Below, in pieces: positions 17,452 to 42,862 of a stretch of 42,862 nucleotides of DNA. The stretch comes from an uncultured Ruminococcus sp. (GTDB lineage Bacteria; Bacillota; Clostridia; Oscillospirales; Ruminococcaceae). The notes beneath the pieces were generated by a model. It was given only the letters and a program-made list of their open reading frames with translations, was not told where the DNA came from and did no database searches. The stretch lies in contig CADBOP010000077.1 of the NCBI GenBank assembly GCA_902796255.1, positions 1 to 42,862 of the forward strand, in the 5' to 3' direction. The position numbers and the translations under genes are program-made. Position 1 is the first letter of the stretch, and each line of letters starts with the position of its first letter.

Positions 17452-17452
17452 A

Positions 17453-21400: not shown

Positions 21401-21443
21401 AGAATAAGTATATTTTTATGATACAGAAAGGGGTTTGCTGCAT

Positions 21444-26338: not shown

Positions 26339-26353
26339 ATTATCTATAAAGCC

Positions 26354-26380: not shown

Positions 26381-26394
26381 AAGGAGGAATGAAA

Positions 26395-27335: not shown

Positions 27336-27363
27336 ATTGACTTATTTCACGATTTTTTCCAAA

Positions 27364-30015: not shown

Positions 30016-30084
30016 TCTAATTTCCCCTCTCGTTTTAGATTTAGATTTTGTTAAGATTTAAAAAAATATCACACCAATTCTGAC

Positions 30085-30120
30085 AGTCTGGCTTGCCGTC
30101 AGTGCAAACGGAAGCAGACT
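30085..30120 (-). promoter_or_regulatory. 5'-proximal stem-loop in the GH48 leader
   Basis: On the minus-strand RNA, AGUCUGCUUCCG pairs with CGGCAAGCCAGACU: 12 bp with two single-nt bulges and a 10-nt loop. It starts a few nt after the predicted TSS. Confidence 0.45.
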
Positions 30121-30131
30121 TTCATAATTTC

Positions 30132-30160
30132 ATTATAGTCAATTCCGGAGATTTTGTCAA
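30132..30160 (-). promoter_or_regulatory. GH48 promoter (perfect consensus hexamers)
   Basis: Minus strand reads TTGACA (30160..30155), a 17-nt spacer (aaatctccggaattgac), then TATAAT (30137..30132). It lies about 115 nt upstream of the ATG at 30015. Confidence 0.7.
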
Positions 30161-30449
30161 GGCTTTCACGAAAATCTGAAACAATTTTTTCATGATTTCG
30201 GCACTATTCACATGACTTGAACATCATTTTTGTATATTTTAACAACAAATTTTCAAACATTATGCAAAAGTTTTTCACGCAGCATACACAAAATACCATT
30301 ATAATAAAACAGTAAGTGTGTTTATGTATAAATTCATAGTTTGTAAATATTTTATTTATATTTTATTCATATATTTATGTAATAATAAAATTATGTATGT
30401 CCGTATTTAAAATATATAAAAAATCATAAAGAGAAAGGAAATTTTATTT

Positions 30450-31448
30450 ATGGTCGAAATCAAGAATCTGTCGAAATATTACGGCAGAAATCCCGCTGTC
30501 AAAGGCATTGACTTTGAAATACGGGATAACGAAATTCTGGGTTTTTTAGGGCCGAATGGTGCAGGAAAATCCACGACAATGAATATCATCGCCGGCTATC
30601 TGCCATCCACGGGGGGAACGGTAACAGTCAACGGCTTTGATATTACAGAACAAGCCTCAGAAGCCAAAAAATGTATCGGCTATCTGCCGGAAATTCCGCC
30701 AGTCTATCCGGATATGCGGGTAGAAGAATATCTGGATTTTGTGGCCGGCCTGAAAGGTGTGCCACGTACCGAACGGAAAAAACAAGTGGAGGATTCTATG
30801 GAAAAACTGCATATTACTGATATGCGGCGGAGATTAATCCGGAATCTGTCCAAAGGCTATAAGCAAAGAGTCGGCTTTGCACAGGCTCTGCTCGGTGACC
30901 CGAAAATTCTGATTCTGGACGAACCGACTGTCGGTCTCGACCCCTCTCAGGTAATGGAAGTCAGAAACTTAATTCTGGAACTGGGCAAGAATCATTCTGT
31001 GATATTCAGTTCACATATTCTGGCTGAAGTCAGTGCCGTGTGCGAACGTGTGGTGATTATCAACAAAGGCGAAATCATGGCTGTTGATACTATCGAAAAT
31101 CTTGAGAAAAATATGACGGCAGATACTGTCCTGAACCTGACAGCCGAGGGCGACAAGGATAAAATTACCCGCCTGCTGAAAGATGTCCGTGGTGTGACAG
31201 GCATTTCTGATATCAAAGAAATTTCCGAAAACCGCAATCTCTACCAGATTGAACTGAAAGAAGAATCTGTCCGGAATGAAATTATGTCTGTATTATTAAA
31301 TAACCAGTGCAGCATTGTGGAAATGAATCTCGCAAAATTAAATTTAGAGCAGGTATTCATGAAGATTATTCAGGAAAAGAAAAAATCCAGTCTGGAAGAA
31401 TTAATAGACGAAACCCAAGAATCCAATCCCTATGACGAGGAGGTCTGA
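30450..31448 (+). CDS. ABC transporter ATP-binding protein (GldA-like), module A
   Basis: Walker A GPNGAGKSTT, signature LSKGYKQR, Walker B LILDEPTVGLD, H-loop SSHIL. Confidence 0.92.
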   Translation: MVEIKNLSKYYGRNPAVKGIDFEIRDNEILGFLGPNGAGKSTTMNIIAGYLPSTGGTVTVNGFDITEQASEAKKCIGYLPEIPPVYPDMRVEEYLDFVAGLKGVPRTERKKQVEDSMEKLHITDMRRRLIRNLSKGYKQRVGFAQALLGDPKILILDEPTVGLDPSQVMEVRNLILELGKNHSVIFSSHILAEVSAVCERVVIINKGEIMAVDTIENLEKNMTADTVLNLTAEGDKDKITRLLKDVRGVTGISDIKEISENRNLYQIELKEESVRNEIMSVLLNNQCSIVEMNLAKLNLEQVFMKIIQEKKKSSLEELIDETQESNPYDEEV

Positions 31449-31452
31449 CCCC

Positions 31453-32184
31453 ATGTTTTCATTATATAAAAAAGAAATGCAGTCATTTTTCTTCTCGCCC
31501 TTTGCCTATGTTCTGATTGCATTATTTATGCTGATATTCAGCTTCGCTTTTATTACATCTATCGCTTCCATGAGCTCAAGTGTCCTGAAATTTTCATTTC
31601 CAAGTATTTTCTATGATAATTTCTTCTTCTTTATTTTTATTATCCCGATTCTGACAATGCGTTCTTTCGCTGATGAAAGAAAAGGCGGCACAGAAGTCCT
31701 GCTCCTGACAAGCCCCCTGAGTGTCGGAAAAATCGTACTTGCAAAATTTCTTTCGATTATTACAGTATTCGCCATCATGCTGCTTGCAACATTTTTCTTC
31801 CCTGTCTATACAGCCCTGAACGGTCAGGTAATGTGGTCTTCCCTGATATGTGCATATTTAGGCTTTTTCTTATGGGGTATGGTCTGCATAGCTGTCGGAA
31901 TGCTGCTTTCTTCTCTGACAGGAAATGCCATTATCGCCGCTGTTTTAGGCGAAATCATCATGGAAGGTACACTGCTTGCCGACCAGCTCGGCGGCTCTGC
32001 TCTGGTAAATGCTTACCCTAACCTGAACTCCCTTATCAGCTGGATTTCCATGCAAAGACGCTTTGTCGTCTTTTCACAGGGTATGTTCCGTCTGGAAGAT
32101 TTGATTTTCTTTCTGAGTGCGACAGCTGTCGTTATCTGCTGGAATATTATCGCTATCGAAAAACGCCGCTGGAGTCACAGCTAA
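31453..32184 (+). CDS. ABC-2 type permease (GldF-like), module A
   Basis: About 6 TM segments. IPILTMRSFADERKGGT loop and C-terminal EKRRWS. GAGGAGG RBS at 31436..31442 supports the ATG at 31453. Confidence 0.8.
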   Translation: MFSLYKKEMQSFFFSPFAYVLIALFMLIFSFAFITSIASMSSSVLKFSFPSIFYDNFFFFIFIIPILTMRSFADERKGGTEVLLLTSPLSVGKIVLAKFLSIITVFAIMLLATFFFPVYTALNGQVMWSSLICAYLGFFLWGMVCIAVGMLLSSLTGNAIIAAVLGEIIMEGTLLADQLGGSALVNAYPNLNSLISWISMQRRFVVFSQGMFRLEDLIFFLSATAVVICWNIIAIEKRRWSHS

Positions 32185-32200
32185 GAGGAGGAAAGCTATC

Positions 32201-33733
32201 ATGGATAATAATACCAATCAAAAGCCTTTTAAAAATCTGAAAAACAGAAAATTCACTGCCTATGCAGCGGTTCTGGCTGCACTCGCTTTAGCCGTGGCGA
32301 TTCCTGTCAATCTGCTGGCAAGCAGACTGAATATTATCTGGGATATGACCCCTGCAAAACTCTATGAATTATCAGATACTACTAAAAATTATCTCGAAAA
32401 TTTAGACAAGCAGGTGGATTTCTATTTCCTCATGGATATGGATTATCTCTCCACAGATGACAACAGCATGGCATTATATTACACTCTCAAACAATATGCC
32501 GATTATGATAATATTAATTTCATCGCCTTTGACCCTGACCAGAAACCGGAACTCGTAAACGAACTGAAAGAAAAAGGCTATAATCTCTCTGATGGTGATA
32601 TGGTCATGTGCTGTGAGGACAGAAGCAAACATGTCTTGGGTACAAACATGTATCAGTATGATGTCTCTTATGATGAAAATGACAACAAAACCATTGAAGC
32701 CGCCTACTTTACAGGCGAAAATTACATCACAGGTGCGATTCATGCCGTTGTATCCGGAAAAGAAGCTTCTGTTTATTTCCTGACAGGTCACGGAGAAAAA
32801 ACACTTTCCGGCGACTATACAAAATTTAATTCCAATATGAAAAATCAGAATTATAACGCACAGGAATTAAACTTGGCAACAGAAACAGCTGTCCCCGAAG
32901 ATGCTGCCATGCTGATTTTAGCCGGCCCGAAATCCGACCTTTCCAATGACGAAACCCGTATGATTAACGAATATCTTGACAACGGCGGGAATATCTGCTT
33001 CCTGATGTCGCCAAACAAGGAAAAAATGGCCTATAAAAATATAGAATCTATCATGGATTCTTTCGGCATTCATATGGATTATGACATTGTCAAAGAAACT
33101 GACTCCAGCCGTTATGTCAGCGGTGACCCCTATACTTATCAGGTCAGCATTGTCCGTGCAGATACAGAAAACTATGATGTCGACCTTACCAGCGAACTGG
33201 CAGATATGACAGACAACGGCTATTATGCATTTATGAGCAATTCCCGAAGCTTTTACCAGTATTTCGGTGCAGAAGATTATTCTCTGGAAGTGGGGTCTTT
33301 ATTGCAGACCGTTTCCGGTACAGATGAATACGGCGATTCTACTTCTACTGCTGTCGGAGAAATCTACGGCGGTACTGACCCGACTGCTGAAGATATTACA
33401 GGCTATCCGCTGGATTTAGCCATGTATTCTACAAGCACATCACGCAATAATGCCAAAGTTCTGGTAATGGGAAATGCAGAATTTATTGACGATGTCAATG
33501 TCGCACAGGACTATATGATTATCCCCGTTTATTTAATGCTTTCGGCAATGAGCTGGATGTACGACAGTGATACTATACTGGATATGGGTATCGCTGATAA
33601 AGAACGTGACTATGATTCTATGAATATCAATTCTGAAACCAAAGCAAATACTGTCATGGTTCTGTATATTGCTGTTCCGGTAGTCATCGGTCTTGCCGGT
33701 GTAGGGGTATGGCTCAAAAGGAGGTATTCCTGA
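32201..33733 (+). CDS. GldG-like ABC-transporter auxiliary protein, module A
   Basis: About 510 aa, with an N-terminal TM (AAVLAALALAVAIPVNLL) and a C-terminal TM (VLYIAVPVVIGLAGVGVW) flanking a large extracytoplasmic region that contains VYFLTGHGE. GAGGAGG RBS precedes the ATG at 32201. Confidence 0.75.
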   Translation: MDNNTNQKPFKNLKNRKFTAYAAVLAALALAVAIPVNLLASRLNIIWDMTPAKLYELSDTTKNYLENLDKQVDFYFLMDMDYLSTDDNSMALYYTLKQYADYDNINFIAFDPDQKPELVNELKEKGYNLSDGDMVMCCEDRSKHVLGTNMYQYDVSYDENDNKTIEAAYFTGENYITGAIHAVVSGKEASVYFLTGHGEKTLSGDYTKFNSNMKNQNYNAQELNLATETAVPEDAAMLILAGPKSDLSNDETRMINEYLDNGGNICFLMSPNKEKMAYKNIESIMDSFGIHMDYDIVKETDSSRYVSGDPYTYQVSIVRADTENYDVDLTSELADMTDNGYYAFMSNSRSFYQYFGAEDYSLEVGSLLQTVSGTDEYGDSTSTAVGEIYGGTDPTAEDITGYPLDLAMYSTSTSRNNAKVLVMGNAEFIDDVNVAQDYMIIPVYLMLSAMSWMYDSDTILDMGIADKERDYDSMNINSETKANTVMVLYIAVPVVIGLAGVGVWLKRRYS

Positions 33734-33735
33734 TT

Positions 33736-35163
33736 ATGAGTACCAGAAAAATGAAAGCCCTTGTCATAGGCCTTATCGTTATGCTGATTGTTGCTGTGTG
33801 TGCCTATATCGCAGTAGATACGCTCAAAACCCGTGAAGAACAGGCTGCTCTGGAAGAAGAAAAATCTCTCCAGTTATTTGACTTTGATGCCGACAGTATC
33901 GACAAAGTAGACATCGAAGTGCCGGAAGGTAATTTTACTGTGGAGAATTCGGCTGACGGCTGGACAATCACAGATACTACTTATCCGCATGATATTGCCC
34001 TGAACACATATTATATTAATACTATATGCAATTATATGAGCGATTTGACAGCCCTGAAAAAACTCACTGTCAGTACAGAAGAACTTGCAAACTATGGCTT
34101 TGAAGCCTATTGCCCGCTGACATGCTATGCCGGCGGAACAGCATATACAATTTATCTGGGAAATCCCTCCGCAACAGAAGACTATTATTATGTCATGCGG
34201 CCGGAGGATTCCACCGTCTATGCAATCGATTTTGACAAAGGAGAAATCATGAAAGGCGGCCTGACCTATCTGCAAGACCCCTATATGATAACATGGATGG
34301 ATGTAAATATCAACTATGTCAGACTGTCAAATAAAAATAATATTATTTTTGAAATTGAAAAAGACGATTCTGAAAAATGGCAGATGCTCGAACCCCTGAA
34401 ACGTTCTCCGCTCAATGCTGCAAATATCAATTCTATGCTGACTTCTGTCACCCGTCTGCAAATTGAACGTTTCATCAAAGTTGCTGAAACTCCGCAGGAT
34501 TTAATTGACTATCATCTGGATAATCCGGCTTATCAGTTCACCCTGAAAACCGAAACCGGAGAAACTATGACAATTGATTTCGCTTCTTTCAAAAAAGAGG
34601 ATACAAGCGTTTATCTTGTCTATGAAGAATCCGGCCAGATAGCTACAATGGACATCGGCAGCGTTGCCTTCTTACAGACAAAAGCATCTGAAATCATGAC
34701 AGATAAAATCTATTCTCCGGAAATCACAGATGTTTCCGTTCTGGATGTGACTGTAGATGACCTGCATTTCACAATGAATATGAATCATGAAGAAAGCAAA
34801 GCATTTTTCACTTCTGCCGGCTTTGCTGATGAAACTGAAATCTCCGGCAATACAAATGAAATCCAGAAAGCATATCATGAATTGTTCTCCTCTGTTTCCA
34901 ATCTGACTTATGATTCTCTTGAACTGGATGCCGAAATAGACAAAGAAGCACAGCCCTCTGTTATTTTCCATTATACCCTCACAGACGGCACAGAAACGGA
35001 AGTGACACTTGTGCCGGTTGATGACACTTATTACCAGTCCTTTATTGATGGCGAATATACCGGAAAAATCGTCCGCAGACGAGCCTTGTCAGGAAATGCC
35101 GGTGTACTGACCTATCATGAAAAACTGATTGACTTGCTTGAAATGAATTCTGAAACAGAATAA
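33736..35163 (+). CDS. DUF4340-like membrane-anchored protein, module A
   Basis: N-terminal TM (ALVIGLIVMLIVAVCAYIAV) followed by about 440 extracytoplasmic aa. Contains the segments WTITD ... LANYGF ... IYLGN ... YYYV typical of the family that accompanies GldG. Confidence 0.7.
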   Translation: MSTRKMKALVIGLIVMLIVAVCAYIAVDTLKTREEQAALEEEKSLQLFDFDADSIDKVDIEVPEGNFTVENSADGWTITDTTYPHDIALNTYYINTICNYMSDLTALKKLTVSTEELANYGFEAYCPLTCYAGGTAYTIYLGNPSATEDYYYVMRPEDSTVYAIDFDKGEIMKGGLTYLQDPYMITWMDVNINYVRLSNKNNIIFEIEKDDSEKWQMLEPLKRSPLNAANINSMLTSVTRLQIERFIKVAETPQDLIDYHLDNPAYQFTLKTETGETMTIDFASFKKEDTSVYLVYEESGQIATMDIGSVAFLQTKASEIMTDKIYSPEITDVSVLDVTVDDLHFTMNMNHEESKAFFTSAGFADETEISGNTNEIQKAYHELFSSVSNLTYDSLELDAEIDKEAQPSVIFHYTLTDGTETEVTLVPVDDTYYQSFIDGEYTGKIVRRRALSGNAGVLTYHEKLIDLLEMNSETE

Positions 35164-35171
35164 TATCAAAA

Positions 35172-35210
35172 AAATCCGCCGTTTTCAGTTCCGGCGGATT
35201 TTCTTGTTTC
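35172..35210 (+). terminator. Terminator of ABC module A
   Basis: Perfect 10-bp stem: aaatccgccg (35172..35181) pairs with cggcggattt (35192..35201), followed by a T-rich tail. Confidence 0.8.
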
Positions 35211-35274
35211 TGCTTTGCTTCTTTTATATTCAGAATTTTGTAATTCGTGTGGAAAAATTTGTCATATTTACTGA

Positions 35275-35303
35275 TTGACAATAATATTATAAAATGCTAT
35301 AAT
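35275..35303 (+). promoter_or_regulatory. Promoter of the GGDEF-domain sensor gene (full consensus with extended -10)
   Basis: TTGACA (35275..35280), a 17-nt spacer, then TGcTATAAT (35295..35303). Confidence 0.7.
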
Positions 35304-35335
35304 AAAATCATACTTTTATACAAGAGGTGATATAT

Positions 35336-36730
35336 TTGAAAAAATCCAGACGAAATTCCACCAGAAGAAATCTTGCATTGGCTTTATTCCTCTTACTGTC
35401 TGCCAATATTATCATGGGTACTATTATGGCATGGCAGTCCAAAATTTCTATGCAGACCCTTATCCAGCAAAGAATGCTGGATATTTCCAACACAGCCGCT
35501 TCTATGCTGAACGGAGATACTATGAAAACGCTCCATCGTGATGATAAAGGAACAGAAAACTACGAAGAAGCAATGGCTGTTCTCAGAATCTTTCAGGAAA
35601 ATATCGAGCTGGAATATATCTATGCCATCAATGTAGAACCAGATGGCAGTTTTACTTTTTCTATCGACCCCACTATCGAAGACCCCGGAGAATTCGGAGA
35701 GCCTGTTGTCGTCACTGATGCATTGATTCAGGCTTCACAGGGAATCCCTGCCGTAGACAAACAACCCTATGAAGATGCATGGGGAAGATTCTATTCTGCC
35801 TACAGCCCTGTCTATGATTCAGAATGGAAAGTCCCTGTTGTAGTTGCTGTCGATTTCGATGCGGATTGGGTTGATAAGCAGGTTTCAAAACATATTATGA
35901 CAATTGTAATTATTACTGTATTTTCACTTGGTATTGGTATATGGCTTGCATGGGCGATTTCTTCAGGAAGCCGGAAACGTGCAAATGCACTGAATGCCCA
36001 GATGGCAGAACTGGCAGGAGGTTTCAGGCAATTAAAACAAGTCATGATGCAGACTTCTATGAACAAATTAGATACTATTCGGGACGAGAGCCATCGGGAA
36101 CTGCTCCAGACACTGGCTTCCGGCCAAAACTATTCTGACAGTAACTGGAATGAATTTTCTGAAACAACGGATAACCTGCACTCCATGCAGAAAGACCTTC
36201 TGCGGTATATTGCATTTTTAAACTCCCAGACCTATATAGACCCCCTCACAGGTGTCGGCAATAAAGAAGCCTATCGTATGCAGGTCATGGAACTGGATAA
36301 GCGTATTTCTGAAAAAAAAGCAAAAACTGCTGAATTTGCCATTGGCTTTTTTGATATTAACGAATTAAAAAATGTCAATACCAACTATGGTTTTGCAGAG
36401 GGTGACAAACTTATGACGGCTGCGGCTGGTCTGTTGTCAGAAATCTTCCAAGAAGAAAATGTCTATCGTCTTGTCAGTGATGAATTTATTGTCATTCTGG
36501 AACGAAAAACAGTAGAAGATATGTATCAGCTTTTTGCCGAACTGGAAAAGAAAATACAGGAATATAACAAACAGAATCCGAAATCTCCCCGTCTTGCAAT
36601 CGCAATGGGTACAGATGTCTATCGTGAAGAAAATAAAAACTACCGGCAAGTATTTATTAAAGCAGAAGCAGATATGCGAAAAAATAAAAAAGCATATTAT
36701 AACAAAAAAGCTCCCAGACAGGAGTTTTAA
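35336..36730 (+). CDS. Membrane sensor protein with extracytoplasmic (Cache-like) domain and degenerate GGDEF domain
   Basis: Two TM helices (LALALFLLLSANIIMGTIMAW and IMTIVIITVFSLGIGIWLAWAI) flank about 160 aa. The C-terminal GGDEF fold is DPLTGVGNKEAY ... GFFDINELKNVN ... GDKLM ... YRLVSDEFIVIL; the signature reads VSDEF. TTG at 35336 follows the AGAGGTG RBS; the ORF track used GTG at 35327. Confidence 0.8.
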   Translation: MKKSRRNSTRRNLALALFLLLSANIIMGTIMAWQSKISMQTLIQQRMLDISNTAASMLNGDTMKTLHRDDKGTENYEEAMAVLRIFQENIELEYIYAINVEPDGSFTFSIDPTIEDPGEFGEPVVVTDALIQASQGIPAVDKQPYEDAWGRFYSAYSPVYDSEWKVPVVVAVDFDADWVDKQVSKHIMTIVIITVFSLGIGIWLAWAISSGSRKRANALNAQMAELAGGFRQLKQVMMQTSMNKLDTIRDESHRELLQTLASGQNYSDSNWNEFSETTDNLHSMQKDLLRYIAFLNSQTYIDPLTGVGNKEAYRMQVMELDKRISEKKAKTAEFAIGFFDINELKNVNTNYGFAEGDKLMTAAAGLLSEIFQEENVYRLVSDEFIVILERKTVEDMYQLFAELEKKIQEYNKQNPKSPRLAIAMGTDVYREENKNYRQVFIKAEADMRKNKKAYYNKKAPRQEF

Positions 36731-36741
36731 TATTAATATTC

Positions 36742-36782
36742 AAAAAGCCCCTCTGTCACAGACAGAGAGGCTTTCTTTTTTT
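36742..36782. terminator. Bidirectional terminator between the GGDEF gene and the cyclophilin gene
   Basis: Stem gcccctctgtc (36747..36757) pairs with gacagagaggc (36761..36771) at 10/11 bp. An A-run precedes it and a T-run follows. Confidence 0.8.
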
Positions 36783-36816
36783 CCACAATCTTTCAACAAA
36801 ACTTTCCACAAATACT

Positions 36817-36867
36817 AACAGGTTCTCAACAGTCTTAACCCAGACTGTTGAAAACCTGTTTTTTTAT
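36817..36867 (+). terminator. Second long hairpin plus T-run overlapping the cyclophilin stop codon
   Basis: 19-bp stem with one mismatch: aacaggttctcaacagtct (36817..36835) pairs with agactgttgaaaacctgtt (36842..36860), followed by ttttttt. Confidence 0.6.
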
Positions 36868-37568
36868 TTTGTTACCAGCTCAGCCATTGTAATCTGTACA
36901 CGGGGATTTCCGTTTTCATCGGGGTCAATCATAGTCACATCCTGCATGGTAATCGGTGAGGTAGGAACAGATACTTCTCCTGTTGCTGACATAATCCGCT
37001 CAACATTCAGGAAATTATCCACCACTTCCATACCTTGTGTCACTTCACCGAAGGCAGCATAATTTCCGTCCAGAAAAGAACAATCTGTATAGCAGATAAA
37101 AAACTGACTGGAAGCACTGTCGGGGTCACTGCTTCTTGCCATAGAAACAATCCCTCTCTGATGTGATAAATCATTCTCCACACCATTGGAAGCAAATTCG
37201 CCTTTAATAGTCTGTTCACTTCCGCCCATGCCAGTCCCTTCAGGGTCACCGCCCTGAGCCATAAAATCATCAATTACTCTGTGAAATGTCAGACCGTTAT
37301 AAAACCCCTGTGATACTAAATTTTCAAAATTCTCACATGTAATCGGTGCTTTATCCGGATAGAGTGTAATCACAATAATATTGCTGTCAGAGACAGAATC
37401 GCTGGCTGCTTCCGGTACTGTACCCGCCTGTGTTTCTGCTTCTGCGGCAGGAACAGTTTCTGCATTCTGTGAAGCTGTAGTATCTGTTTCTTTTGCAGTG
37501 CCGCATCCTGTCAGCAGAACCAGCCCGAGAGCGAGACAAAGCCATGATTTTTTTCTCATATTCTTCAT
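36864..37568 (-). CDS. Lipoprotein peptidyl-prolyl cis-trans isomerase, cyclophilin type
   Basis: Lipobox LLTGC in MKNMRKKSWLCLALGLVLLTGCG and an Ala/Glu/Thr-rich linker. Cyclophilin core FHRVIDDFMAQGGDP ... SMAR ... SQFFI. AAGGAG RBS precedes the ATG at 37568. Confidence 0.9.
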   Translation of the reverse strand: MKNMRKKSWLCLALGLVLLTGCGTAKETDTTASQNAETVPAAEAETQAGTVPEAASDSVSDSNIIVITLYPDKAPITCENFENLVSQGFYNGLTFHRVIDDFMAQGGDPEGTGMGGSEQTIKGEFASNGVENDLSHQRGIVSMARSSDPDSASSQFFICYTDCSFLDGNYAAFGEVTQGMEVVDNFLNVERIMSATGEVSVPTSPITMQDVTMIDPDENGNPRVQITMAELVTK

Positions 37569-37585
37569 ATTCCTGATACTCCTTT

Positions 37586-37846
37586 TTAACTGCGATTTGC
37601 ACGTTTCAGCCATACCAGAGCGACATCCAGTGCTTCATAGAGATTATCACGCTCGGCATTCTGCACCGGCAGAGGATTATTAAAATCCGTTGACATCTGA
37701 TAAAATTTAATACTCTTGGAAACTACAATATCCTGTTGTTTCTGAGAAGTTTCCACTTTAAGATATACGACATAGGGGTCACTCATATACCCAAAATACA
37801 TTTCGTTGCCCTTACGGACGAGGGGGTAATTCTTATACATCATCAT
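37586..37846 (-). CDS. Hypothetical 86-aa cytoplasmic protein
   Basis: AAAGGAG RBS 10 nt before the ATG at 37846. Lies 37 nt after the DUF4340 gene and 17 nt before the cyclophilin gene. No recognisable motif and no TM segment. Confidence 0.5.
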   Translation of the reverse strand: MMMYKNYPLVRKGNEMYFGYMSDPYVVYLKVETSQKQQDIVVSKSIKFYQMSTDFNNPLPVQNAERDNLYEALDVALVWLKRANRS

Positions 37847-37883
37847 AACAAAAAAACTCCTTTCTGTGTGACACAGCAGGATG

Positions 37884-39488
37884 TTACTGCCATGTCATGA
37901 CAAACTCCTCATCGGGATTATCAAATATTTCTATATTGTGCAGAACTGTATCTACACAGGAAGAACGTATTTTATAAGTCGGCGTACCATTTACAGCAAT
38001 CATTGCATTCAGGCCGCCCATTTTATAGAACGAAATCACATAATCTTCCTTGCCGTTCTGGGAGACCAGATGAATTTCCGCTTCTGGTGCAGAAGCCGGC
38101 AGTTCGGCATCAAGATATAACTCTTCACCATAAATATATAACAAAAATTTATAAAACAGCCTGAAACGTTCTGTATCGCATGTTTCGCCGTTTTTGGTTA
38201 CAGTATAATCATTCTGGTCAGTTCCCGAACCGTTAAACAGAAGCTTTTTCTCTCCGGCCGTCACCTCCAGCGTAGCAATATCCCATACATATGTTCCGAA
38301 AATATTTGCCGAAGTAATATCACCAGCCTGAACAGTAGCCCAGACAGCACGACTGTCTGCAATGCCATATAAAATATCCGTTCCCTCCAGAACAGCGTAA
38401 TAATTACTTTCGCCGGATTCTGTCTGATACTGATTTCCTAATTTCAATACATACGTATTGCCGTCATCACAAACCATTGTTACAGTACAGAACGGCTGGT
38501 TCATTCCTGCCTGTTCCAATTCTGTTTCAGAGGGGTGAACAGTTACAATTTCATTTGCTGTCAGGCCGAACAAGCCATTTGTAACATCCGCAGATTTTTC
38601 CACATTCAGATAAGCGAATACAGGTTCACGCAGTACATGAGTTGCCGCCGTACCGCCGACAGAATCATCTTCAGTGACATCATAGGCATATTCCATATAC
38701 AAATCCGTATTCAAATCCTGTCTTTGTATCCGAAGCGATTCTACAATCGGATACTCTTCCTCAGCGGGTTCTTCCAAAACAGTTTTAGAAAAGAAAAACT
38801 TCAGTCCCTGCTCATAATTATTCATGAGAGAAGATTTCACAAGATACACATTTCCGTCTACTGCACAATAAGTCTGTGCATTGTTCATTGGTGATACACT
38901 TCCGACAGAAAATGTAAAATCCGTGCCGTCCTGATAGCTCATAACCACCTGAGAAACCGGCTTATCCAATCCATATTTTTCCAAATCAGATGCCTTTTCC
39001 TCCACGAGCTGGTCAGCAGAAAGCTGGCTTGCGTTCTTCACCAGAGTAGAAATATATCCTGTATCTAACGGAATATCCTCATATCCTTCAATTGTATAAC
39101 CTGCATCATCTTCACTGGTTTTTTCTGCATTCTTATAAACCCTGAACGCATCCTGATTAGAAATCCGGATTTCTTTCAAATCATCAGCAGATTCCGGATT
39201 CAGCATGACTGCATTTTTTTCGTCATCATCCAGAAGCCCTTCTGCAAGAGAGTCGACATCGAGAGAGCTTGTATCCTGTTCTGAATTTTTATTCACCAGC
39301 AATATTGCTGTCAAAGCACCACCCAGAATCACCAGAGCTGCAACAGCCGCTATCAGCATTTTTACATTTTTAGACATTCCCTTTTTTTCAGGTTTCTGTA
39401 TTACCGGAGCGGGAGAATCTGAAAAAAACGTATCCATACCGGCCTGAGATTCTTCTGTTTCCTGCTGAGAATTTTTTTCTTCGCTCAT
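37884..39488 (-). CDS. DUF4340-like membrane-anchored protein, module B
   Basis: Acidic N-terminal tail, one TM (MLIAAVAALVILGGALTAILLV), then a large extracytoplasmic region with LEKYGLDKP ... FSVG ... VYLV segments. ATGA overlap with the upstream gene. Confidence 0.7.
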   Translation of the reverse strand: MSEEKNSQQETEESQAGMDTFFSDSPAPVIQKPEKKGMSKNVKMLIAAVAALVILGGALTAILLVNKNSEQDTSSLDVDSLAEGLLDDDEKNAVMLNPESADDLKEIRISNQDAFRVYKNAEKTSEDDAGYTIEGYEDIPLDTGYISTLVKNASQLSADQLVEEKASDLEKYGLDKPVSQVVMSYQDGTDFTFSVGSVSPMNNAQTYCAVDGNVYLVKSSLMNNYEQGLKFFFSKTVLEEPAEEEYPIVESLRIQRQDLNTDLYMEYAYDVTEDDSVGGTAATHVLREPVFAYLNVEKSADVTNGLFGLTANEIVTVHPSETELEQAGMNQPFCTVTMVCDDGNTYVLKLGNQYQTESGESNYYAVLEGTDILYGIADSRAVWATVQAGDITSANIFGTYVWDIATLEVTAGEKKLLFNGSGTDQNDYTVTKNGETCDTERFRLFYKFLLYIYGEELYLDAELPASAPEAEIHLVSQNGKEDYVISFYKMGGLNAMIAVNGTPTYKIRSSCVDTVLHNIEIFDNPDEEFVMTWQ

Positions 39489-41101
39489 TTATTTCTTCTC
39501 CTTAAAAATACCAGAATGCCGACTGCCACAACAGCGGACGGAATTGCAAAGATAAAAATATTAATTCCATGCATTTCTGCTGTTTTAACACTAATCGTCT
39601 CATTTGTCAGATTTTTAGAGGCAATCACCAGATTATCGCCTTTACCTGCAAGGCAGTTCATAACTGTCACAAAATACTGTGCATTATTATAAGAAGCGTC
39701 CTGCATCAGGCTGGAATCGCACAGCATTGCTGAACCCAATACCAAAATATTGCTGTCATGTGTAATATTATTTTCAGTATTTTTTCTTGTTGTCAGAGCT
39801 GCAATTGTCTGTGAGCCTACAGGGGTTTTATCCGCCTCATCTGTTGGCTTGCCCATTTCACTCAGATATACAGAATCAGAAGTTTTCAGCAGCTGTGTTG
39901 TAATGCCGCCTGTTTTGGAATCCCATAACAAATTAATTGCTCTGCATAACGGTGCAGCAATCGGCAAAGCTGTATTCGGCAGACCTGCACTGTAAGTTTC
40001 TTCTGCGATAGTTGCAACCGGAACAGAAACTGCACCGGTACTGATAGACAATGCTACCTGCTGGGCAGCACTGGAATCGCTTTCCAGCACCAGATTCTTT
40101 GTCACCTCAATGCCCCATGTAGCCAGAAATTCGTCCAGATTCGGCGTTTCTGCCTGTGTGAAACTTGCAATATAAATCAAATCTTTATCATAATTACCGT
40201 CATTATACAAAAAAGCTGAGAGCTTGTCAATTCCGTCAGCTGTCAGGTCATTGACCGGAGCAGGCAGCAGCAGCATATCATATTTTTCAGTATCAAATTC
40301 ATCTGTATATAAATCCAGTTCTTCATAGCTATAGCCGTTTTTATACAGTGTATTCACAAAGGCATTCAGAGCCGCACCGCTGAACTGCGGGTTATACAGA
40401 GCCTGTCCGTTGCCCATAGATACCACACCAACATTCACAGGGTCAGCATCTGTGACATTCATCAGGGCAGAAGTCAGATTCTGTTCACCGGAGAAACCAG
40501 TAATTGCATCTTCCAGACTGCCTTGTCCGTAATAATAGGCCATATATTTCTGCTGGTCATAATCAAATAAATTTCCGATTTTGACGACTCTTAATTTCGA
40601 CTCATCCGAAGCATTGGAAATCACAATATCACCTTCTGTCAGTGAAGCCGAATAATTTGCCTGATATTTATTCACGATATCCGGATTTGACGAAGGGTCG
40701 ACATAGTTCAGGTGGATTTTATCAGAATACTGTGTATATCTTGACAAAATCTCTGAAACCATTTTGAGTGACTCACCGCTGGTCTGAAACTTACTTTCTG
40801 CCATCAGGACAGTAAAATTCACTTCCTGATTCAATGTTTTCAGGTAATCAATACTTTCTTCTGAAATTTCATATTTTGCATCTTCTGTCAAATCCAGTTT
40901 CAGCGGATATTTTTCCACCAGTACATTCACCAGTATATTCAGCAAAACCACTACAGCAACGACCGTACAGGTAATTGCGGTTGCGATTCCGCCATATTTC
41001 AATTTCTTCTGTGCAGCGGCACTTAATTTCTTCTTTTCTTTTTTTATTTTTTCAGGTTTTTTCTGTGATTCTGTTTCCTGATTTTTTTCTAAATCAGCCA
41101 T
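39485..41101 (-). CDS. GldG-like ABC-transporter auxiliary protein, module B
   Basis: 538 aa. N-terminal TM (ATAITCTVVAVVVLLNILV) and C-terminal TM (IFIFAIPSAVVAVGILVF). The N-terminal block YEISEESIDYLKTLNQEVNF parallels YELSDTTKNYLENLDKQVDF of module A. Confidence 0.75.
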   Translation of the reverse strand: MADLEKNQETESQKKPEKIKKEKKKLSAAAQKKLKYGGIATAITCTVVAVVVLLNILVNVLVEKYPLKLDLTEDAKYEISEESIDYLKTLNQEVNFTVLMAESKFQTSGESLKMVSEILSRYTQYSDKIHLNYVDPSSNPDIVNKYQANYSASLTEGDIVISNASDESKLRVVKIGNLFDYDQQKYMAYYYGQGSLEDAITGFSGEQNLTSALMNVTDADPVNVGVVSMGNGQALYNPQFSGAALNAFVNTLYKNGYSYEELDLYTDEFDTEKYDMLLLPAPVNDLTADGIDKLSAFLYNDGNYDKDLIYIASFTQAETPNLDEFLATWGIEVTKNLVLESDSSAAQQVALSISTGAVSVPVATIAEETYSAGLPNTALPIAAPLCRAINLLWDSKTGGITTQLLKTSDSVYLSEMGKPTDEADKTPVGSQTIAALTTRKNTENNITHDSNILVLGSAMLCDSSLMQDASYNNAQYFVTVMNCLAGKGDNLVIASKNLTNETISVKTAEMHGINIFIFAIPSAVVAVGILVFLRRRNK

Positions 41102-41116
41102 GACTGCAATACCTCC

Positions 41117-41821
41117 TTAACTCCAGCGTCTTTTCTCGAATACTCTCACAGTAAAGAAATTAAACAGCACTGCTGTACTCAGATAAAACAGCACACTGGA
41201 GAGATTGAAGATACCGCATGTAAACTCATAATATCTTGTATAAAAAGACAAATCATACAGCACGCTCTGAAGCCAGCCGATTTTTACAAACGATGCTACA
41301 ACATCAATCAGGAACAGCATTGCCAGACAAACAATACCACCGACTGCAGCGGCCACCTGATTTTCTGTCAGGGAAGAAACGAACAGCCCGATTGCAATAA
41401 AGGCCGCACCGACCAGCAACACAGCCAGATAATTAGAAATCAGTGTCAGCCATGCCACTGTGCCGAACAAGCTCAGTATCAGCCCATAAATAAACACAAT
41501 GCTGACAGCTATCACAAACATTGTCAGGGCTGCAAAATATTTTCCCAATACAATACCAGTCAGCGATACCGGAGCAGTCAGCAGCCCCTGTTCCGTTCTT
41601 TGTCTTTTCTCTTCACTGAACAGACGCATAGTCAGAATGGGTATCAAAAAAATACTGATAAAAAACAAAGTAGAAAACACACCGGACAAATTTGTCGAAC
41701 CGACTGCAATATTATCCAGCGAAAAAAACAAGCCTGAAAAAATATAGAATACTGCTAAAAAAATATACGCAATGCTTGACGAAAAAAATGCTCCGATTTC
41801 TCTGCGGTAAATAGCACCCAT
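41117..41821 (-). CDS. ABC-2 type permease (GldF-like), module B
   Basis: About 6 TM segments, the IPILTMRLFSEEKRQRT loop, and C-terminal EKRRWS as in module A. TAATG junction with the ATPase gene. Confidence 0.8.
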   Translation of the reverse strand: MGAIYRREIGAFFSSSIAYIFLAVFYIFSGLFFSLDNIAVGSTNLSGVFSTLFFISIFLIPILTMRLFSEEKRQRTEQGLLTAPVSLTGIVLGKYFAALTMFVIAVSIVFIYGLILSLFGTVAWLTLISNYLAVLLVGAAFIAIGLFVSSLTENQVAAAVGGIVCLAMLFLIDVVASFVKIGWLQSVLYDLSFYTRYYEFTCGIFNLSSVLFYLSTAVLFNFFTVRVFEKRRWS

Positions 41822-42792
41822 TATTTTCCGTCTCCTTTCTGATTCTGACTTAACTGGATATTCTCACCCATTGTAATTTTCAGGAAAATATCTTCCAGTG
41901 TCATTTCCATTGTTTTCAAAGTCAGAATATCCCATTCATGTTCTCTTGCAATCCGGTTAATATCCTTCCGAATATCCATACCGGGTTCAGCTTCGATTTC
42001 ATATTCATAGATACCTGGTTCTCTCTCCATATCTGCACGGACATATTTAATTCCGGGCAAGGCTCTGATGGCCTGAAGAATCTCCGCACGTTCGCCGTCA
42101 ATTCTTGCAATAATCCTATGGTCAGTCGTAACTTTATTTGACAAATTTGTTGCCGTATCATCTGCTGCAACAACGCCATGATTAATAATAATAACTCTGT
42201 CGCAGACGGCCTGAATTTCGCTCAGAATATGAGATGACAGAATTACAGTATGATTCTTTCCCAGTCTTTTAATCAATGTTCTGATTTCGACCATTTGTTT
42301 GGGGTCAAGGCCGACTGTAGGTTCATCCAGAATCAGCACAGGGGGATTACCGATTAAGGCCTGTGCCAGACCGACTCTCTGCTTATAGCCTTTGGATAAA
42401 TTTTTAATAATTCTGTTCTCGACATCTGCAATCTTGCAGAGTGTCAGCACATCTTTCAAATGTGACCTTCTGGGGAGTTTGCATTTTTTGAGGTCAAATA
42501 CAAAATTCAGATATGAATGCACCGTCATATCCACATACAACGGCGGTATTTCCGGCAGATAGCCGATATACGACTTGGCTTTTACAGGGTCTTCCAGAAT
42601 ATCCACGCCATTGATTAACGCCTGTCCGGAAGTAGAGGAAATATATCCTGTCAGCATATTCATAGTAGTTGACTTTCCTGCACCATTTGGCCCTAAAAAG
42701 CCTAAAATTTCACCGTCATGCACTGTAAAACTAATGTCATTGACGGCTTTTTTATCTCCATAATGTTTTGTCAGGTTTCTGACTTCAATCAT
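41821..42792 (-). CDS. ABC transporter ATP-binding protein (GldA-like), module B
   Basis: Walker A GPNGAGKSTT, LSKGYKQR, LILDEPTVGLD, SSHIL. AAGGAGAGGAG RBS upstream. Confidence 0.92.
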   Translation of the reverse strand: MIEVRNLTKHYGDKKAVNDISFTVHDGEILGFLGPNGAGKSTTMNMLTGYISSTSGQALINGVDILEDPVKAKSYIGYLPEIPPLYVDMTVHSYLNFVFDLKKCKLPRRSHLKDVLTLCKIADVENRIIKNLSKGYKQRVGLAQALIGNPPVLILDEPTVGLDPKQMVEIRTLIKRLGKNHTVILSSHILSEIQAVCDRVIIINHGVVAADDTATNLSNKVTTDHRIIARIDGERAEILQAIRALPGIKYVRADMEREPGIYEYEIEAEPGMDIRKDINRIAREHEWDILTLKTMEMTLEDIFLKITMGENIQLSQNQKGDGK

Positions 42793-42822
42793 GAGGAATT
42801 CTCCTCTCCTTATTATTTCTAA

Positions 42823-42850
42823 ATTCTACTATACTATAGCTATGTGTCAG
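42823..42850 (-). promoter_or_regulatory. Candidate promoter of ABC module B
   Basis: Minus strand reads CTGACA (42850..42845), a 16-nt spacer, then TAGAAT (42828..42823). Confidence 0.4.
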
Positions 42851-42862
42851 TTTTGTGACAGA

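What the first reader, a model, noticed from the sequence alone, without database searches (positions are those of the whole stretch)
30450..42792. Two diverged four-gene GldA/GldF/GldG/DUF4340-type ABC modules converge on a sensor/foldase island: candidate uncharacterised envelope export system
Module A lies on the plus strand: ATPase 30450..31448, ABC-2 permease 31453..32184, GldG-like 32201..33733, DUF4340-like 33736..35163, then a clean terminator. Module B lies on the minus strand: ATPase 42792..41821, permease 41821..41117, GldG-like 41101..39485, DUF4340-like 39488..37884. Gene order is identical in both, and the junctions are tight (TAATG, ATGA, gaps of 2-16 nt), so each module looks like one translationally coupled unit. 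The paralogues are clearly related but old. The ATPases share ILGFLGPNGAGKSTTMN, IGYLPEIPP, NLSKGYKQRVG, LILDEPTVGLDP and LGKNH..SSHIL; by eye roughly half the positions match. The permeases share IPILTMR and the terminal EKRRWS. Both large subunits are anchored by an N-terminal and a C-terminal TM helix, and both fourth subunits have a single N-terminal anchor. No solute-binding protein is present, so these look like exporters. The only studied relatives I know are GldA/GldF/GldG, which are required for Bacteroidetes gliding and whose substrate is unknown. To my knowledge the DUF4340 partner and the Firmicute versions have no assigned function. Here the two copies flank a GGDEF-type sensor and an extracytoplasmic cyclophilin, directly next to the major cellulosomal exoglucanase gene. 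This suggests a surface-assembly, exopolymer or adhesion-related machine.
Basis: partly seen in the sequence, partly recalled or inferred. Interest (0 to 1): 0.85.

Follow-up and report, generated by a model that had tools for sequence, protein, structure and literature searches.

The report
Two GldG/DUF4340 ABC modules, one GH48-linked
The window really holds two old, diverged copies of an uncharacterised four-gene ABC machine with large outward-facing subunits. The "sensor/foldase island" between them is a recent accident of gene order; the conserved links are one copy to the cellulase gene GH48 and the other to a housekeeping operon plus a small unknown protein.

Summary
All eight ORFs exist at the stated coordinates. 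Their Pfam hits are ABC_tran, ABC-2 permease, ABC_transp_aux/GldG plus DUF7088, and DUF4340. Topologies and junctions are as described. Paralogue identity is 47/36/22/20%.

The two modules belong to separate, reciprocally monophyletic lineages with separate conserved homes.

- **Module B:** in 80 Oscillospiraceae species genomes it follows truB-ribF (69/70). It is followed by a conserved 86-aa cytoplasmic protein with no Pfam family (71/72). A cyclophilin lipoprotein follows in 17/62.
- **Module A:** in 61/61 testable loci (29 clusters, locus GC 31-60%, including R. albus 8) it is divergently paired with a GH48 gene, while the outer flanks vary.
- **The island:** the convergent A/B arrangement occurs only in the window and its closest relative. 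The GGDEF gene appears in only three loci, and its motif is degenerate (VSDEF).

The function is still unknown. The family is a known but uncharacterised kind, annotated as GldG family/DUF4340. All three GldA/F/G equivalog cut-offs are missed. I found no solved analogue of DUF4340; the GldG ectodomain matches the IFT52 GIFT fold.

The most likely mechanism is an ATP-driven ABC-2 core acting through two ectodomain partners on envelope or surface proteins. This is inferred, not shown.

The parts
27364..30015 (-). GH48 family exoglucanase with signal peptide and C-terminal dockerin-like repeats. It is the conserved divergent partner of module A.
   Evidence: Pfam Glyco_hydro_48 E 9e-176. Dockerin_1 is recorded on orthologues. 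Divergently adjacent to A-lineage modules in 61/61 testable loci.
30016..30449 (.). AT-rich (26% GC) divergent intergenic region between GH48 and ATPase A. It holds a consensus sigma-70-like promoter for GH48 (30160-30132, minus strand) and the Shine-Dalgarno sequences of both genes.
   Evidence: Promoter scan, 12/12 match. Conserved k-mers across 26 diverged loci: GH48 SD GAGAGGGGAA in 20/26, -35 CTTGACAAA in 10-14/26, ATPase SD GAAAGGAG in 13/26. No Rfam family.
30450..31448 (+). Module A ATPase (GldA-like/DrrA-like NBD with a C-terminal DrrA1-3_C-type domain).
   Evidence: ABC_tran 1.5e-32. TIGR03522 GldA 311.8 bits, below the 402.6 cut-off.
31453..32184 (+). Module A ABC-2 permease (GldF-like, about 6 TM).
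   Evidence: ABC2_membrane_2 2e-9. TIGR03518 113.7 bits, below the 288.5 cut-off. TM scan. The start MFSLYKKE is conserved in orthologues.
32201..33733 (+). Module A GldG-like subunit: N- and C-terminal TM helices flanking a large ectodomain (DUF7088 plus GIFT/ABC_transp_aux).
   Evidence: PF09822 1.3e-19, IFT52_GIFT 2e-10, DUF7088 7e-9. IFT52 chains by sequence, 1.3e-7. TM scan.
33736..35163 (+). Module A DUF4340 subunit: a single N-terminal TM anchor and a two-domain DUF4340 ectodomain.
   Evidence: PF14238 1.3e-29, two stretches. TM scan. No PDB sequence relative.
35167..35206 (+). Intrinsic terminator closing module A.
   Evidence: dG -17.3 kcal/mol, z -5.1, followed by UUUUCUUGUUU.
35327..36730 (+). 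Membrane protein with two TM helices, an extracytoplasmic domain of about 155 aa and a degenerate GGDEF domain (VSDEF). It has its own consensus promoter (35275-35303). It is not a conserved partner of either module.
   Evidence: GGDEF 1e-20. Motif and TM scan. Promoter 12/12 with TG. Present next to the modules only in the window, L005 and L013.
36817..36860 (-). Strong intrinsic terminator closing the module B transcription unit, after the cyclophilin gene.
   Evidence: 19-bp stem. dG -31.2 kcal/mol, z -8.5.
36864..37568 (-). Cyclophilin-type peptidyl-prolyl isomerase lipoprotein (lipobox LLTGC). It is the last gene of the module B unit in this lineage.
   Evidence: Pro_isomerase 4e-46. Start and lipobox read from the sequence. 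It follows the small ORF in 17/62 testable species loci.
37586..37846 (-). Conserved 86-aa protein with no TM helix or signal peptide and no Pfam family. It is the fifth gene of module B.
   Evidence: Alignment A4, 42-87% identity with 24 invariant positions. No Pfam hit. Present after DUF4340-B in 71/72 testable species loci, and 514 bp away in the 72nd. 331 representative clusters in 1.84e9 proteins.
37884..39488 (-). Module B DUF4340 subunit.
   Evidence: PF14238 8.9e-27. AF2 model pLDDT 88.5, pTM 0.78: TM helix 40-65, then beta-rich modules 104-520. No significant PDB fold match.
39485..41101 (-). Module B GldG-like subunit.
   Evidence: PF09822 8.3e-20, DUF7088 4.8e-10. AF2 pLDDT 81, TM helices 28-64 and 507-537. 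Foldseek best match is the IFT52 GIFT domain, E 3.5e-9, TM 0.69.
41117..41821 (-). Module B ABC-2 permease (GldF-like).
   Evidence: ABC2_membrane_2 2.3e-8. TIGR03518 119.9 bits, below 288.5. The profile's only PDB hit is NosY, E 0.19.
41821..42792 (-). Module B ATPase.
   Evidence: ABC_tran 3.2e-30. TIGR03522 318.8 bits, below 402.6. Closest solved NBDs: ABCA3/ABCA1 2e-62, T. maritima 4yer 3e-41, NosF 2e-36, LptB 4e-35.

Best explanation
The window carries two independent members of the widespread but uncharacterised GldA/GldF/GldG-like plus DUF4340 family of ABC-2 systems.

Shown from sequence and models: each module encodes a cytoplasmic ATPase, a roughly 6-TM ABC-2 permease, a GldG-like protein whose GIFT-fold ectodomain is held by two TM helices, and a DUF4340 protein with one TM anchor and an elongated beta-rich ectodomain.

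Shown by comparative genomics:
- Module B is the core copy. It is appended to the nusA-infB-truB-ribF cluster in all sampled Ruminococcus-group species, including non-cellulolytic ones such as R. bromii. It always carries a fifth gene for a small cytoplasmic protein, and in this sub-lineage a cyclophilin lipoprotein as well.
- Module A is a separate, equally old lineage. It is found only as a divergent pair with the GH48 cellulase gene.
- The convergent A/B arrangement with the GGDEF gene is a recent, lineage-specific juxtaposition of these two loci.

Inferred mechanism: an (ATPase)2(permease)2 core uses ATP hydrolysis to act on the outer face of the membrane through the GldG and DUF4340 ectodomains. 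No binding protein is involved, so it is an exporter or mechanotransducer, not an importer. I favour a role in the maturation, stability or placement of envelope and surface (lipo)proteins over bulk solute export. On this reading B serves the general envelope and A serves the cellulolytic apparatus.
For: Architecture and family.

The quartet is conserved as a unit and in the same order in all loci examined. For B, 75/80 species loci show it complete and the rest are truncated by contig ends. For A, 56 loci hold GH48, permease A and GldG-A together. An outgroup quartet, L171, has the same order.

B context: ribF upstream in 69/70, small ORF in 71/72, cyclophilin in 17/62. No minus-strand terminator was found between DUF4340-B and the cyclophilin; a strong one follows the cyclophilin.

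A context: GH48 is divergent in 61/61 testable loci. These fall into 29 clusters at 90% GldG identity, with outer flanks in at least 8 different contexts on each side and locus GC of 0.31-0.60. Named hosts include R. albus 8, Porcipelethomonas ammoniilytica and Ruminococcus sp. CAG:403.

Lineages: A and B are reciprocally monophyletic. The A-B distance (0.62-0.68) is about the same as the distance to the outgroup.

The convergent layout occurs only in the window and L005.

For the favoured mechanism, by analogy and literature:
- In F. johnsoniae, GldA, GldF and GldG are needed for the stability of the lipoproteins GldJ and GldK, and a PPIase lipoprotein (GldI) is needed for the same proteins (PMC9127263). 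Here a PPIase lipoprotein is co-oriented with module B.
- The permease profile's only PDB hit is NosY of NosDFY, an ABC-2 machine that matures an extracytoplasmic enzyme. That description is my own knowledge; the hit itself is weak (E 0.19).
- A SAR11 preprint predicted with AlphaFold-Multimer that a DUF4340 protein is a subunit of the adjacent ABC transporter (10.64898/2025.12.11.693642).
Against: No experiment on any Firmicute member was found, so the substrate and the action are unknown.

The closest solved NBDs are ABCA lipid exporters. ABC-2 permeases are typical of polymer, lipid and drug exporters, which fits plain export at least as well.

The NosY similarity is not significant (E 0.19).

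The cyclophilin is absent from most B loci (45/62).

The B-ribF junction is as conserved (69/70) as the A-GH48 junction. Very stable adjacency in this clade therefore need not mean shared function.

No shared operator or RNA element was found in the GH48/A intergenic region beyond the promoters and SD sequences.

Confidence: 0.55

Rival explanations
1. Each module is a conventional ABC-2 exporter that moves a hydrophobic or lipid-linked molecule (lipid, lipid-linked glycan, teichoic-acid-like or exopolymer precursor) out of the membrane. The GldG and DUF4340 ectodomains act as an extracellular receiving scaffold, by analogy with the large ectodomains of ABCA transporters.
For: The closest solved NBDs are ABCA3/ABCA1 (2e-62) and LptB (4e-35). 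DrrA is the second-best NCBIfam hit. The permeases belong to ABC-2 families. There is no SBP gene. The GIFT fold is shared with OST48 and IFT52, and OST48_N gives a weak hit at 1.5e-5. V. spinosum Tn-seq reports an essential domain in a DUF4340-containing gene (PMC12283558), which fits a core envelope-building role.
Against: No glycosyltransferase, polymerase or flippase partner is conserved next to either module. The NBD similarity reflects the ABC subfamily, not the substrate.
Confidence: 0.3
2. One reading: the two modules, the GGDEF sensor and the cyclophilin form one integrated, c-di-GMP-controlled surface-assembly island.
For: All of these genes are adjacent in the window and in the closest relative, L005. 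The cyclophilin is co-transcribed with B as far as the sequence shows.
Against: The arrangement is absent from all other relatives. GGDEF is linked in 1 of 80 species loci. The GG(D/E)EF motif is VSDEF. The GGDEF gene has its own promoter and sits between two terminators.
Confidence: 0.05
3. The GH48/module A adjacency is frozen synteny without functional meaning. Module A is simply a second envelope-housekeeping paralogue that happened to land beside GH48 in the ancestor of the cellulolytic ruminococci.
For: The B-ribF junction is equally conserved (69/70) with no obvious functional tie. No shared regulatory motif was found. The correlation of GH48 and GldG-A divergence (rho 0.92) is what any vertically co-inherited pair would show. 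No literature or expression evidence links them.
Against: The junction survives across 29 clusters with locus GC of 31-60%, while both outer flanks turn over repeatedly. No A-lineage module was seen away from GH48 (0/61).
Confidence: 0.35
4. The modules are drug, bacteriocin or lantibiotic self-protection efflux pumps of the DrrAB / lantibiotic-protection ABC-2 type.
For: NCBIfam drrA scores 232.6 / 221.9 bits and lantibiotic-protection ABC scores 166 / 179 bits. Both ATPases have a DrrA1-3_C tail.
Against: All of these scores are below their cut-offs and below the GldA score. Known pumps of that type, to my knowledge, do not have GldG or DUF4340 partners. No biosynthetic or immunity genes are adjacent. 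Module B is core and syntenic in all sampled species, which is unlike accessory resistance genes.
Confidence: 0.07

Closest known systems
GldA/GldF/GldG gliding-motility ABC transporter of Flavobacterium johnsoniae (TIGR03522/03518/03521)
   Same: It is the best-scoring NCBIfam family for all three core proteins. It has the same ATPase, 6-TM ABC-2 permease and doubly anchored GldG with a GIFT ectodomain. The ABC signature is similar (LSKGYKQR here, LSKGYRQR in GldA). Its substrate is also unknown. A PPIase lipoprotein, GldI, appears in the same functional network.
   Different: All scores are well below the equivalog cut-offs (312/319 vs 402.6; 114/120 vs 288.5; 49/44 vs 389.9). The host is a monoderm Oscillospiraceae with no link to T9SS or gliding. 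Here all genes form one operon with a DUF4340 fourth gene, plus a fifth small protein in B. The PPIase is a cyclophilin, not GldI.
DUF4340-containing ABC quartet predicted in SAR11 (HIMB59), bioRxiv 10.64898/2025.12.11.693642
   Same: A DUF4340 protein is conserved next to ABC transporter component genes and was predicted by AlphaFold-Multimer to be a transporter subunit. This appears to be the same kind of four-component system.
   Different: The host is a diderm alphaproteobacterium. There is no GH48 link, no small fifth protein and no paralogous pair. That case is also purely computational.
NosDFY (N2O-reductase maturation ABC-2 system; PDB 7O0Y)
   Same: NosF is a close NBD relative (2e-36). 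NosY is the only PDB hit of the permease profile. It is an ABC-2 core that works through a large extracytoplasmic partner to mature an extracytoplasmic enzyme, with a lipoprotein helper (my own knowledge).
   Different: The NosY match is not significant (E 0.19). The partner NosD is a beta-helix protein unrelated to GldG or DUF4340. There is no copper or sulfur context here.
ABCA-type lipid exporters (ABCA1/3/4/7)
   Same: They are the closest solved NBDs (about 2e-62). They have type V/ABC-2-like TMDs combined with very large extracellular domains (my own knowledge).
   Different: They are eukaryotic single-chain full transporters whose ectodomains are inserted in the TMD. Here the ectodomains are separate subunits with unrelated folds: GIFT and DUF4340, which has no PDB match.
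IFT52 / OST48 GIFT-domain proteins
   Same: The GldG-B ectodomain superposes on the IFT52 N-terminal GIFT domain (5fms: E 3.5e-9, TM 0.69). There are also sequence hits at 1.3e-7.
   Different: These are eukaryotic cytoplasmic or ER-lumenal scaffold subunits, not ABC partners. The similarity identifies the fold but says nothing about substrate.

Membership tests
GldA/GldF/GldG equivalogs (NCBIfam TIGR03522, TIGR03518, TIGR03521) | Whole-protein score at or above the curated equivalog cut-off for each of the three proteins | tested here: not met
   GldA 311.8 / 318.8 vs 402.6. GldF 113.7 / 119.9 vs 288.5. GldG 48.6 / 43.6 vs 389.85. These are the best-hitting families, but they fall below cut-off, so the proteins are relatives, not equivalogs.
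GldA/GldF/GldG equivalogs (NCBIfam TIGR03522, TIGR03518, TIGR03521) | Occurs in Bacteroidota with the gliding/T9SS gene set | tested here: not met
   All named close homologues are from Oscillospiraceae, Ruminococcus or Porcipelethomonas. No gld or spr neighbours were seen in any locus.
GldG family / ABC_transp_aux (PF09822) with DUF7088 | Significant PF09822 and PF23357 matches, a GIFT-fold ectodomain, and N- and C-terminal TM anchors | tested here: met
   PF09822 70.9 / 71.6 bits vs cut-off 34.7. DUF7088 36.3 / 40.0 vs 27.8. Foldseek to IFT52 GIFT, E 3.5e-9. TM helices confirmed.
DUF4340 (PF14238) | Significant PF14238 match | tested here: met
   104.2 / 94.9 bits vs cut-off 25, with two stretches each.
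ABC-2 type exporter core (ABC_tran plus ABC2_membrane families) | NBD with Walker A and signature motifs, a separate 6-TM ABC-2 permease, and no solute-binding protein | tested here: met
   There is no SBP gene in either module or in any orthologous locus.
Four-gene GldA/F/G-like plus DUF4340 unit | The same four genes in the same order and on the same strand in relatives | tested here: met
   B: 75/80 species loci are complete and the rest are truncated. A: all loci long enough show it. Outgroup L171 has the same order.
NosDFY-type maturation system | NosY-type permease together with a NosD beta-helix partner and nos genes | tested here: not met
   NosY hit is only E 0.19. No NosD, NosL or NosZ homologue was seen among the neighbours. 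This is an analogy of mechanism only.
Active diguanylate cyclase (GGDEF) | GGDEF domain with an intact GG(D/E)EF active-site motif | tested here: not met
   The domain is present (74.6 bits), but the motif is VSDEF at residues 383-387.
Cyclophilin-type PPIase lipoprotein | Pro_isomerase domain plus a lipobox signal peptide | tested here: met
   PF00160 157.5 bits. MKNMRKKSWLCLALGLVLLTGC read from the sequence.
GH48 cellulosomal exoglucanase | GH48 catalytic domain, signal peptide and dockerin | tested here: met
   PF02011 586 bits. N-terminal hydrophobic segment at residues 9-27. Dockerin_1 is recorded on orthologues. In the window protein the dockerin was only recognised by eye in the C-terminal repeats.

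The most novel reading that the evidence does not exclude
Module A is a dedicated accessory machine of the cellulolytic apparatus. On this reading it is an ABC-2/GldG/DUF4340 complex, co-inherited and co-regulated with the single GH48 exoglucanase gene throughout the cellulolytic ruminococci (including R. albus 8 and human-gut lineages), and it is needed for surface deployment, maturation or turnover of Cel48 or the cellulosome. It would be the first ATP-driven envelope factor tied to cellulolysis and the first functional handle on the DUF4340/GldG family.
Probability: 0.25. Interest if true: 0.8.

Novelty: new member of a known kind. Interest (0 to 1): 0.5.

Why it matters
The GldG/DUF4340 ABC family is very widespread: Bacteroidota gliding genes, a SAR11 predicted complex, a Verrucomicrobium gene reported with an essential domain, and the core locus of gut ruminococci shown here. 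No substrate or mechanism is known for any member.

The two modules in this window are ordinary members of that family, so the finding as written is not a new kind of system. The comparative work does give two concrete handles:
1. A specialised paralogue is strictly paired with the key cellulase gene GH48 across very diverse cellulolytic ruminococci. This suggests a testable phenotype, namely Cel48 level or localisation and growth on cellulose.
2. A core paralogue has a previously unlisted fifth small protein and, in some lineages, a PPIase lipoprotein. This echoes the GldA/F/G-GldI relationship in Flavobacterium.

Either could make the long-open question of what GldAFG-type transporters do experimentally approachable.

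Tried and rejected
- **PDB sequence searches.** DUF4340-A and permease A gave nothing significant. The permease profile gave only NosY at E 0.19.
- **Foldseek.** The confident DUF4340-B model gave no match (best E 2.7e-3, TM below 0.2), so no mechanism could be read from the fold.
- **Rfam.** Nothing credible on 26000-42862. A c-di-GMP or other riboswitch upstream of either module is therefore not supported.
- **Intergenic motif search.** K-mers in 26 diverged GH48/A intergenic regions recovered only promoters and SD sequences.
- **Literature.** DUF4340 appears in 4 papers, none functional. ABC_transp_aux gave nothing relevant. GldG plus Ruminococcus gave none. One search was too unspecific to be useful. 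GH48 or Cel48A with ABC gave no paper noting the linkage.
- **R. albus 7 transcriptome.** The cellulose-induced four-gene "ABC operon" Rumal_3184-3187 turned out to be an SBP-dependent importer, not this system. The supplement held no expression table.
- **Devillard 2004** (R. albus 8 Cel48A/Cel9B mutants) is not held.
- **Genome-collection scan.** The permease alignment returned only B-lineage loci in its 80 rows. Genome-wide co-occurrence of A with GH48 could therefore not be tested.
- **Rejected readings.** SBP-dependent importer (no SBP gene). T9SS/gliding component (wrong phylum, scores below cut-off). Integrated GGDEF-controlled island (not conserved, degenerate motif).

Full report
**1. 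Observation**

The chosen starts agree with gene calls on related contigs and with database proteins of identical length.

Pfam assigns both first genes to ABC_tran (1.5e-32, 3.2e-30) and both second genes to ABC-2 permease families. Both third genes match ABC_transp_aux/GldG (PF09822; 1.3e-19, 8.3e-20) plus DUF7088. Both fourth genes match DUF4340 (1.3e-29, 8.9e-27), with two domain stretches each.

Pairwise identity between the modules is 47% for the ATPases, 36% for the permeases, 22% for the GldG-like proteins and 20% for the DUF4340 proteins. All the quoted shared motifs are present. A hydropathy scan and the AlphaFold models confirm the topology: about six TM helices in the permeases, N- and C-terminal anchors in the GldG-like proteins, and a single N-terminal anchor in the DUF4340 proteins. 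The junctions are 4, 16 and 2 nt gaps in A, and a 1-nt overlap, a 15-nt gap and a 4-nt overlap in B. The terminator after module A is real (dG -17.3 kcal/mol, z -5.1).

Three details needed correction:
- An 86-aa ORF (37846-37586) lies between DUF4340-B and the cyclophilin.
- The cyclophilin starts at 37568 with a lipoprotein signal (LLTGC). A very strong terminator follows it (36860-36817, dG -31.2). No minus-strand terminator was detected upstream of it, so it looks like the last gene of the module B unit.
- The GGDEF domain carries VSDEF instead of GG(D/E)EF. The protein is unlikely to be an active cyclase.

**2. What the modules are related to**

In NCBIfam the best hits for the three core proteins are GldA, GldF and GldG. 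All fall far below the equivalog cut-offs: 312/319 vs 403, 114/120 vs 289, and 49/44 vs 390. These are relatives of the Flavobacterium gliding transporter, not members of it. NCBI already names the close homologues "GldG family protein" and "DUF4340 domain-containing protein" in Oscillospiraceae and Ruminococcus MAGs.

No solved structure is related in sequence to the DUF4340 protein or the permease. The permease profile's only PDB hit is NosY, at a non-significant E of 0.19. The ATPase is closest to ABCA-family NBDs, then NosF and LptB.

AlphaFold2 gave confident models.
- DUF4340-B (pLDDT 88.5, pTM 0.78) has a disordered N-terminus, a TM helix and a run of beta-rich modules. Foldseek finds no significant analogue in the PDB.
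- GldG-B (pLDDT 81) has two terminal TM helices around alpha/beta domains. Its best structural match is the GIFT domain of IFT52 (E 3.5e-9, TM 0.69), followed by ThuA-like and class-I-amidotransferase-like folds.

The literature holds no functional study of DUF4340, and none of GldG outside Bacteroidota. A SAR11 preprint predicted a DUF4340 protein to be a subunit of the adjacent ABC transporter. A Verrucomicrobium Tn-seq study reported an essential domain in a DUF4340-containing gene.

**3. Is the island conserved? No.**

Contigs encoding homologues were retrieved by look-up. One scan covered species-representative genomes (loci L009-L088) and one covered metagenome contigs (L091-L170). All loci were annotated by BLASTP with the window proteins.

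*Module B.* In 75 of 80 species loci the four genes are complete and in the same order. The other five are cut by contig ends. truB-ribF lies upstream on the same strand in 69 of 70 testable loci. The 86-aa ORF follows DUF4340-B in 71 of 72, and lies 514 bp away in the last one. The cyclophilin follows in 17 of 62. A GGDEF gene is nearby in 1 of 80. The species include R. bromii, R. callidus, R. flavefaciens MAGs and Porcipelethomonas. Module B is therefore a core locus of the group, not a cellulosome accessory.

The 86-aa protein has no TM segment and no Pfam family. It has 24 invariant positions across 42-87% identical orthologues and about 331 representative clusters in 1.84 billion proteins. 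It is at least as conserved as the DUF4340 subunit: median identity to the window is 50%, against 40% for DUF4340-B.

*Module A.* Every locus with at least 1.2 kb upstream of the ATPase carries a GH48 gene on the opposite strand. That is 61 of 61 loci, falling into 29 clusters at 90% GldG-A identity. The divergence reaches 43-50% GH48 identity and 23-30% DUF4340 identity. The outer neighbours on both sides differ among clusters, with at least eight contexts per side, and locus GC ranges from 0.31 to 0.60. Exact-sequence look-ups place these permeases in R. albus 8 (EGC03663.1), Porcipelethomonas ammoniilytica, Ruminococcus sp. CAG:403 and other Ruminococcus. Several of those organisms also carry module B. 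No small-ORF or cyclophilin homologue follows module A.

*Phylogeny.* A neighbour-joining tree of the permeases makes A and B reciprocally monophyletic. A-B distances (0.62-0.68) equal those to an outgroup quartet, L171. The paralogy is therefore very old, or one copy was acquired horizontally.

*The convergent layout.* The arrangement with the GGDEF gene is found only in the window and in L005, the closest relative (84% and 76% identical DUF4340 proteins). L013 has GGDEF after the cyclophilin but its contig ends there. In MAG RGIG4890 the two modules lie roughly 25-30 kb apart on one contig. The island is a recent juxtaposition of two independently conserved loci.

**4. How strong is the GH48 link?**

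The junction is much more stable than the flanks around it. No A-lineage module was seen without GH48. GH48 and GldG-A divergence are tightly correlated (rho 0.92).

Three things keep me from calling it functional:
- The B-ribF junction is just as stable, so hyper-conserved junctions do occur in this clade without an obvious shared function.
- The shared intergenic region (417-903 bp) shows only the GH48 promoter and SD and the ATPase SD as conserved k-mers. There is no Rfam element.

No paper in the library mentions the linkage. The cellulose-induced four-gene ABC operon of R. albus 7 is an SBP-dependent importer, not this system.

**5. Mechanism**

*Shown:* an exporter-type ABC-2 core without a binding protein, plus two membrane-anchored subunits whose bulk is outside the cell.

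*Inferred:* ATP hydrolysis is used to act on the outer face of the membrane through those ectodomains.

I favour a role in the maturation, stability or placement of envelope or surface proteins, for four reasons:
- Module B here ends with a PPIase lipoprotein in part of the clade.
- Module A is tied to a major secreted enzyme.
- NosDFY, a weak sequence relative, is an ABC-2 machine that matures an extracytoplasmic enzyme (my own knowledge).

The main rival is plain export of a lipid or lipid-linked glycan. It is about as compatible with the data: the nearest NBDs are ABCA-like, the permeases are ABC-2 family, and the GIFT fold is shared with OST48. Only experiments or complex structures can separate the two.

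**6. Novelty and verdict**

The quartets are ordinary members of a known, widely annotated but uncharacterised family.

Three things are new relative to the searchable literature: the strict pairing of one lineage with GH48 across cellulolytic ruminococci, the conserved fifth small protein of the core lineage, and the appended position of that lineage after the nusA-ribF cluster. These are leads, not demonstrations.

Interest is moderate (0.5). The most novel surviving reading, that module A is a dedicated accessory of the cellulolytic apparatus, gets about 0.25 probability and would be of high interest if true.

Noticed in passing
It has no TM helix, no signal peptide and no Pfam family. It is conserved directly after DUF4340-B in 71/72 species loci and is at least as conserved as the DUF4340 subunit. 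It is probably a fifth, cytoplasmic component of module B. The family has about 331 representative clusters.
   Followed up: yes
window 27364-31448; loci L089-L170: A-lineage modules are divergently paired with a GH48 gene in 61/61 testable loci (29 clusters, locus GC 0.31-0.60), including R. albus 8, Porcipelethomonas ammoniilytica and Ruminococcus sp. CAG:403. The outer flanks vary. The searchable literature does not report this.
   Followed up: yes
window 35327-36730 (+): The GGDEF protein has VSDEF in place of GG(D/E)EF, with no obvious RxxD I-site nearby. It is probably not an active diguanylate cyclase. It has two TM helices around an extracytoplasmic domain of about 155 aa that matches no Pfam family. 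The start codon is ambiguous (GTG 35327 or TTG 35336).
   Followed up: partly
window 42792 onward (off the window); L005-L088: Module B always sits directly downstream of the nusA-ylxR-infB-rbfA-nrnA-truB-ribF cluster on the same strand (69/70). The window ends 70 nt upstream of ATPase B, so this context is not visible in the window itself. It suggests constitutive, growth-coupled expression.
   Followed up: partly
window 27337-28728 (+) and 28861-30054 (+): Long ORFs of 463 and 397 aa lie antisense to the GH48 gene. Their composition is odd and Cys/Ile/Thr-rich. They are almost certainly spurious shadow ORFs of the highly expressed GH48 frame.
   Followed up: no
window 40230-40202 (-): A perfect 12/12 sigma-70 consensus (TTGACA-17-TATAAT) lies inside the GldG-B coding sequence. 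It could be an internal promoter for DUF4340-B, the small ORF and the cyclophilin, or it could be chance.
   Followed up: no
L108-L118, L134 (about 900 bp downstream of DUF4340-A): In the human-gut A-lineage clusters, two consecutive ORFs of about 570-580 aa with ABC ATPase similarity (23-29% identity to the module ATPases) follow module A. Their length suggests fused permease-ATPase half-transporters (not checked). They are absent from the window.
   Followed up: no
L171 5604-11646: An outgroup quartet (DUF4340 23% identical to A) in a different genomic context is followed by a DUF5711 protein instead of the small ORF. There is no GH48. This shows that the four-gene unit exists outside both lineages.
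   Followed up: partly
window 15175-17517 (-): A papain-family C1 peptidase with a lectin-like domain. A protein with the same Pfam domains plus a faint dockerin hit sits next to GH48 in L090.
   Followed up: no
window 1-27300: The rest of the window is ordinary housekeeping context: phosphoglucomutase (380-2092), ComEC (4087-6195), AlaRS (7674-10301), a PBP transpeptidase (12555-14219), RecD2 (21435-23684), MreB (24402-25421), a ComEA-like HHH protein (25447-26313) and a LysR regulator (26389-27297) next to the 3' end of GH48. The LysR gene is present in the window and L001 but not in L003 or L089.
   Followed up: partly
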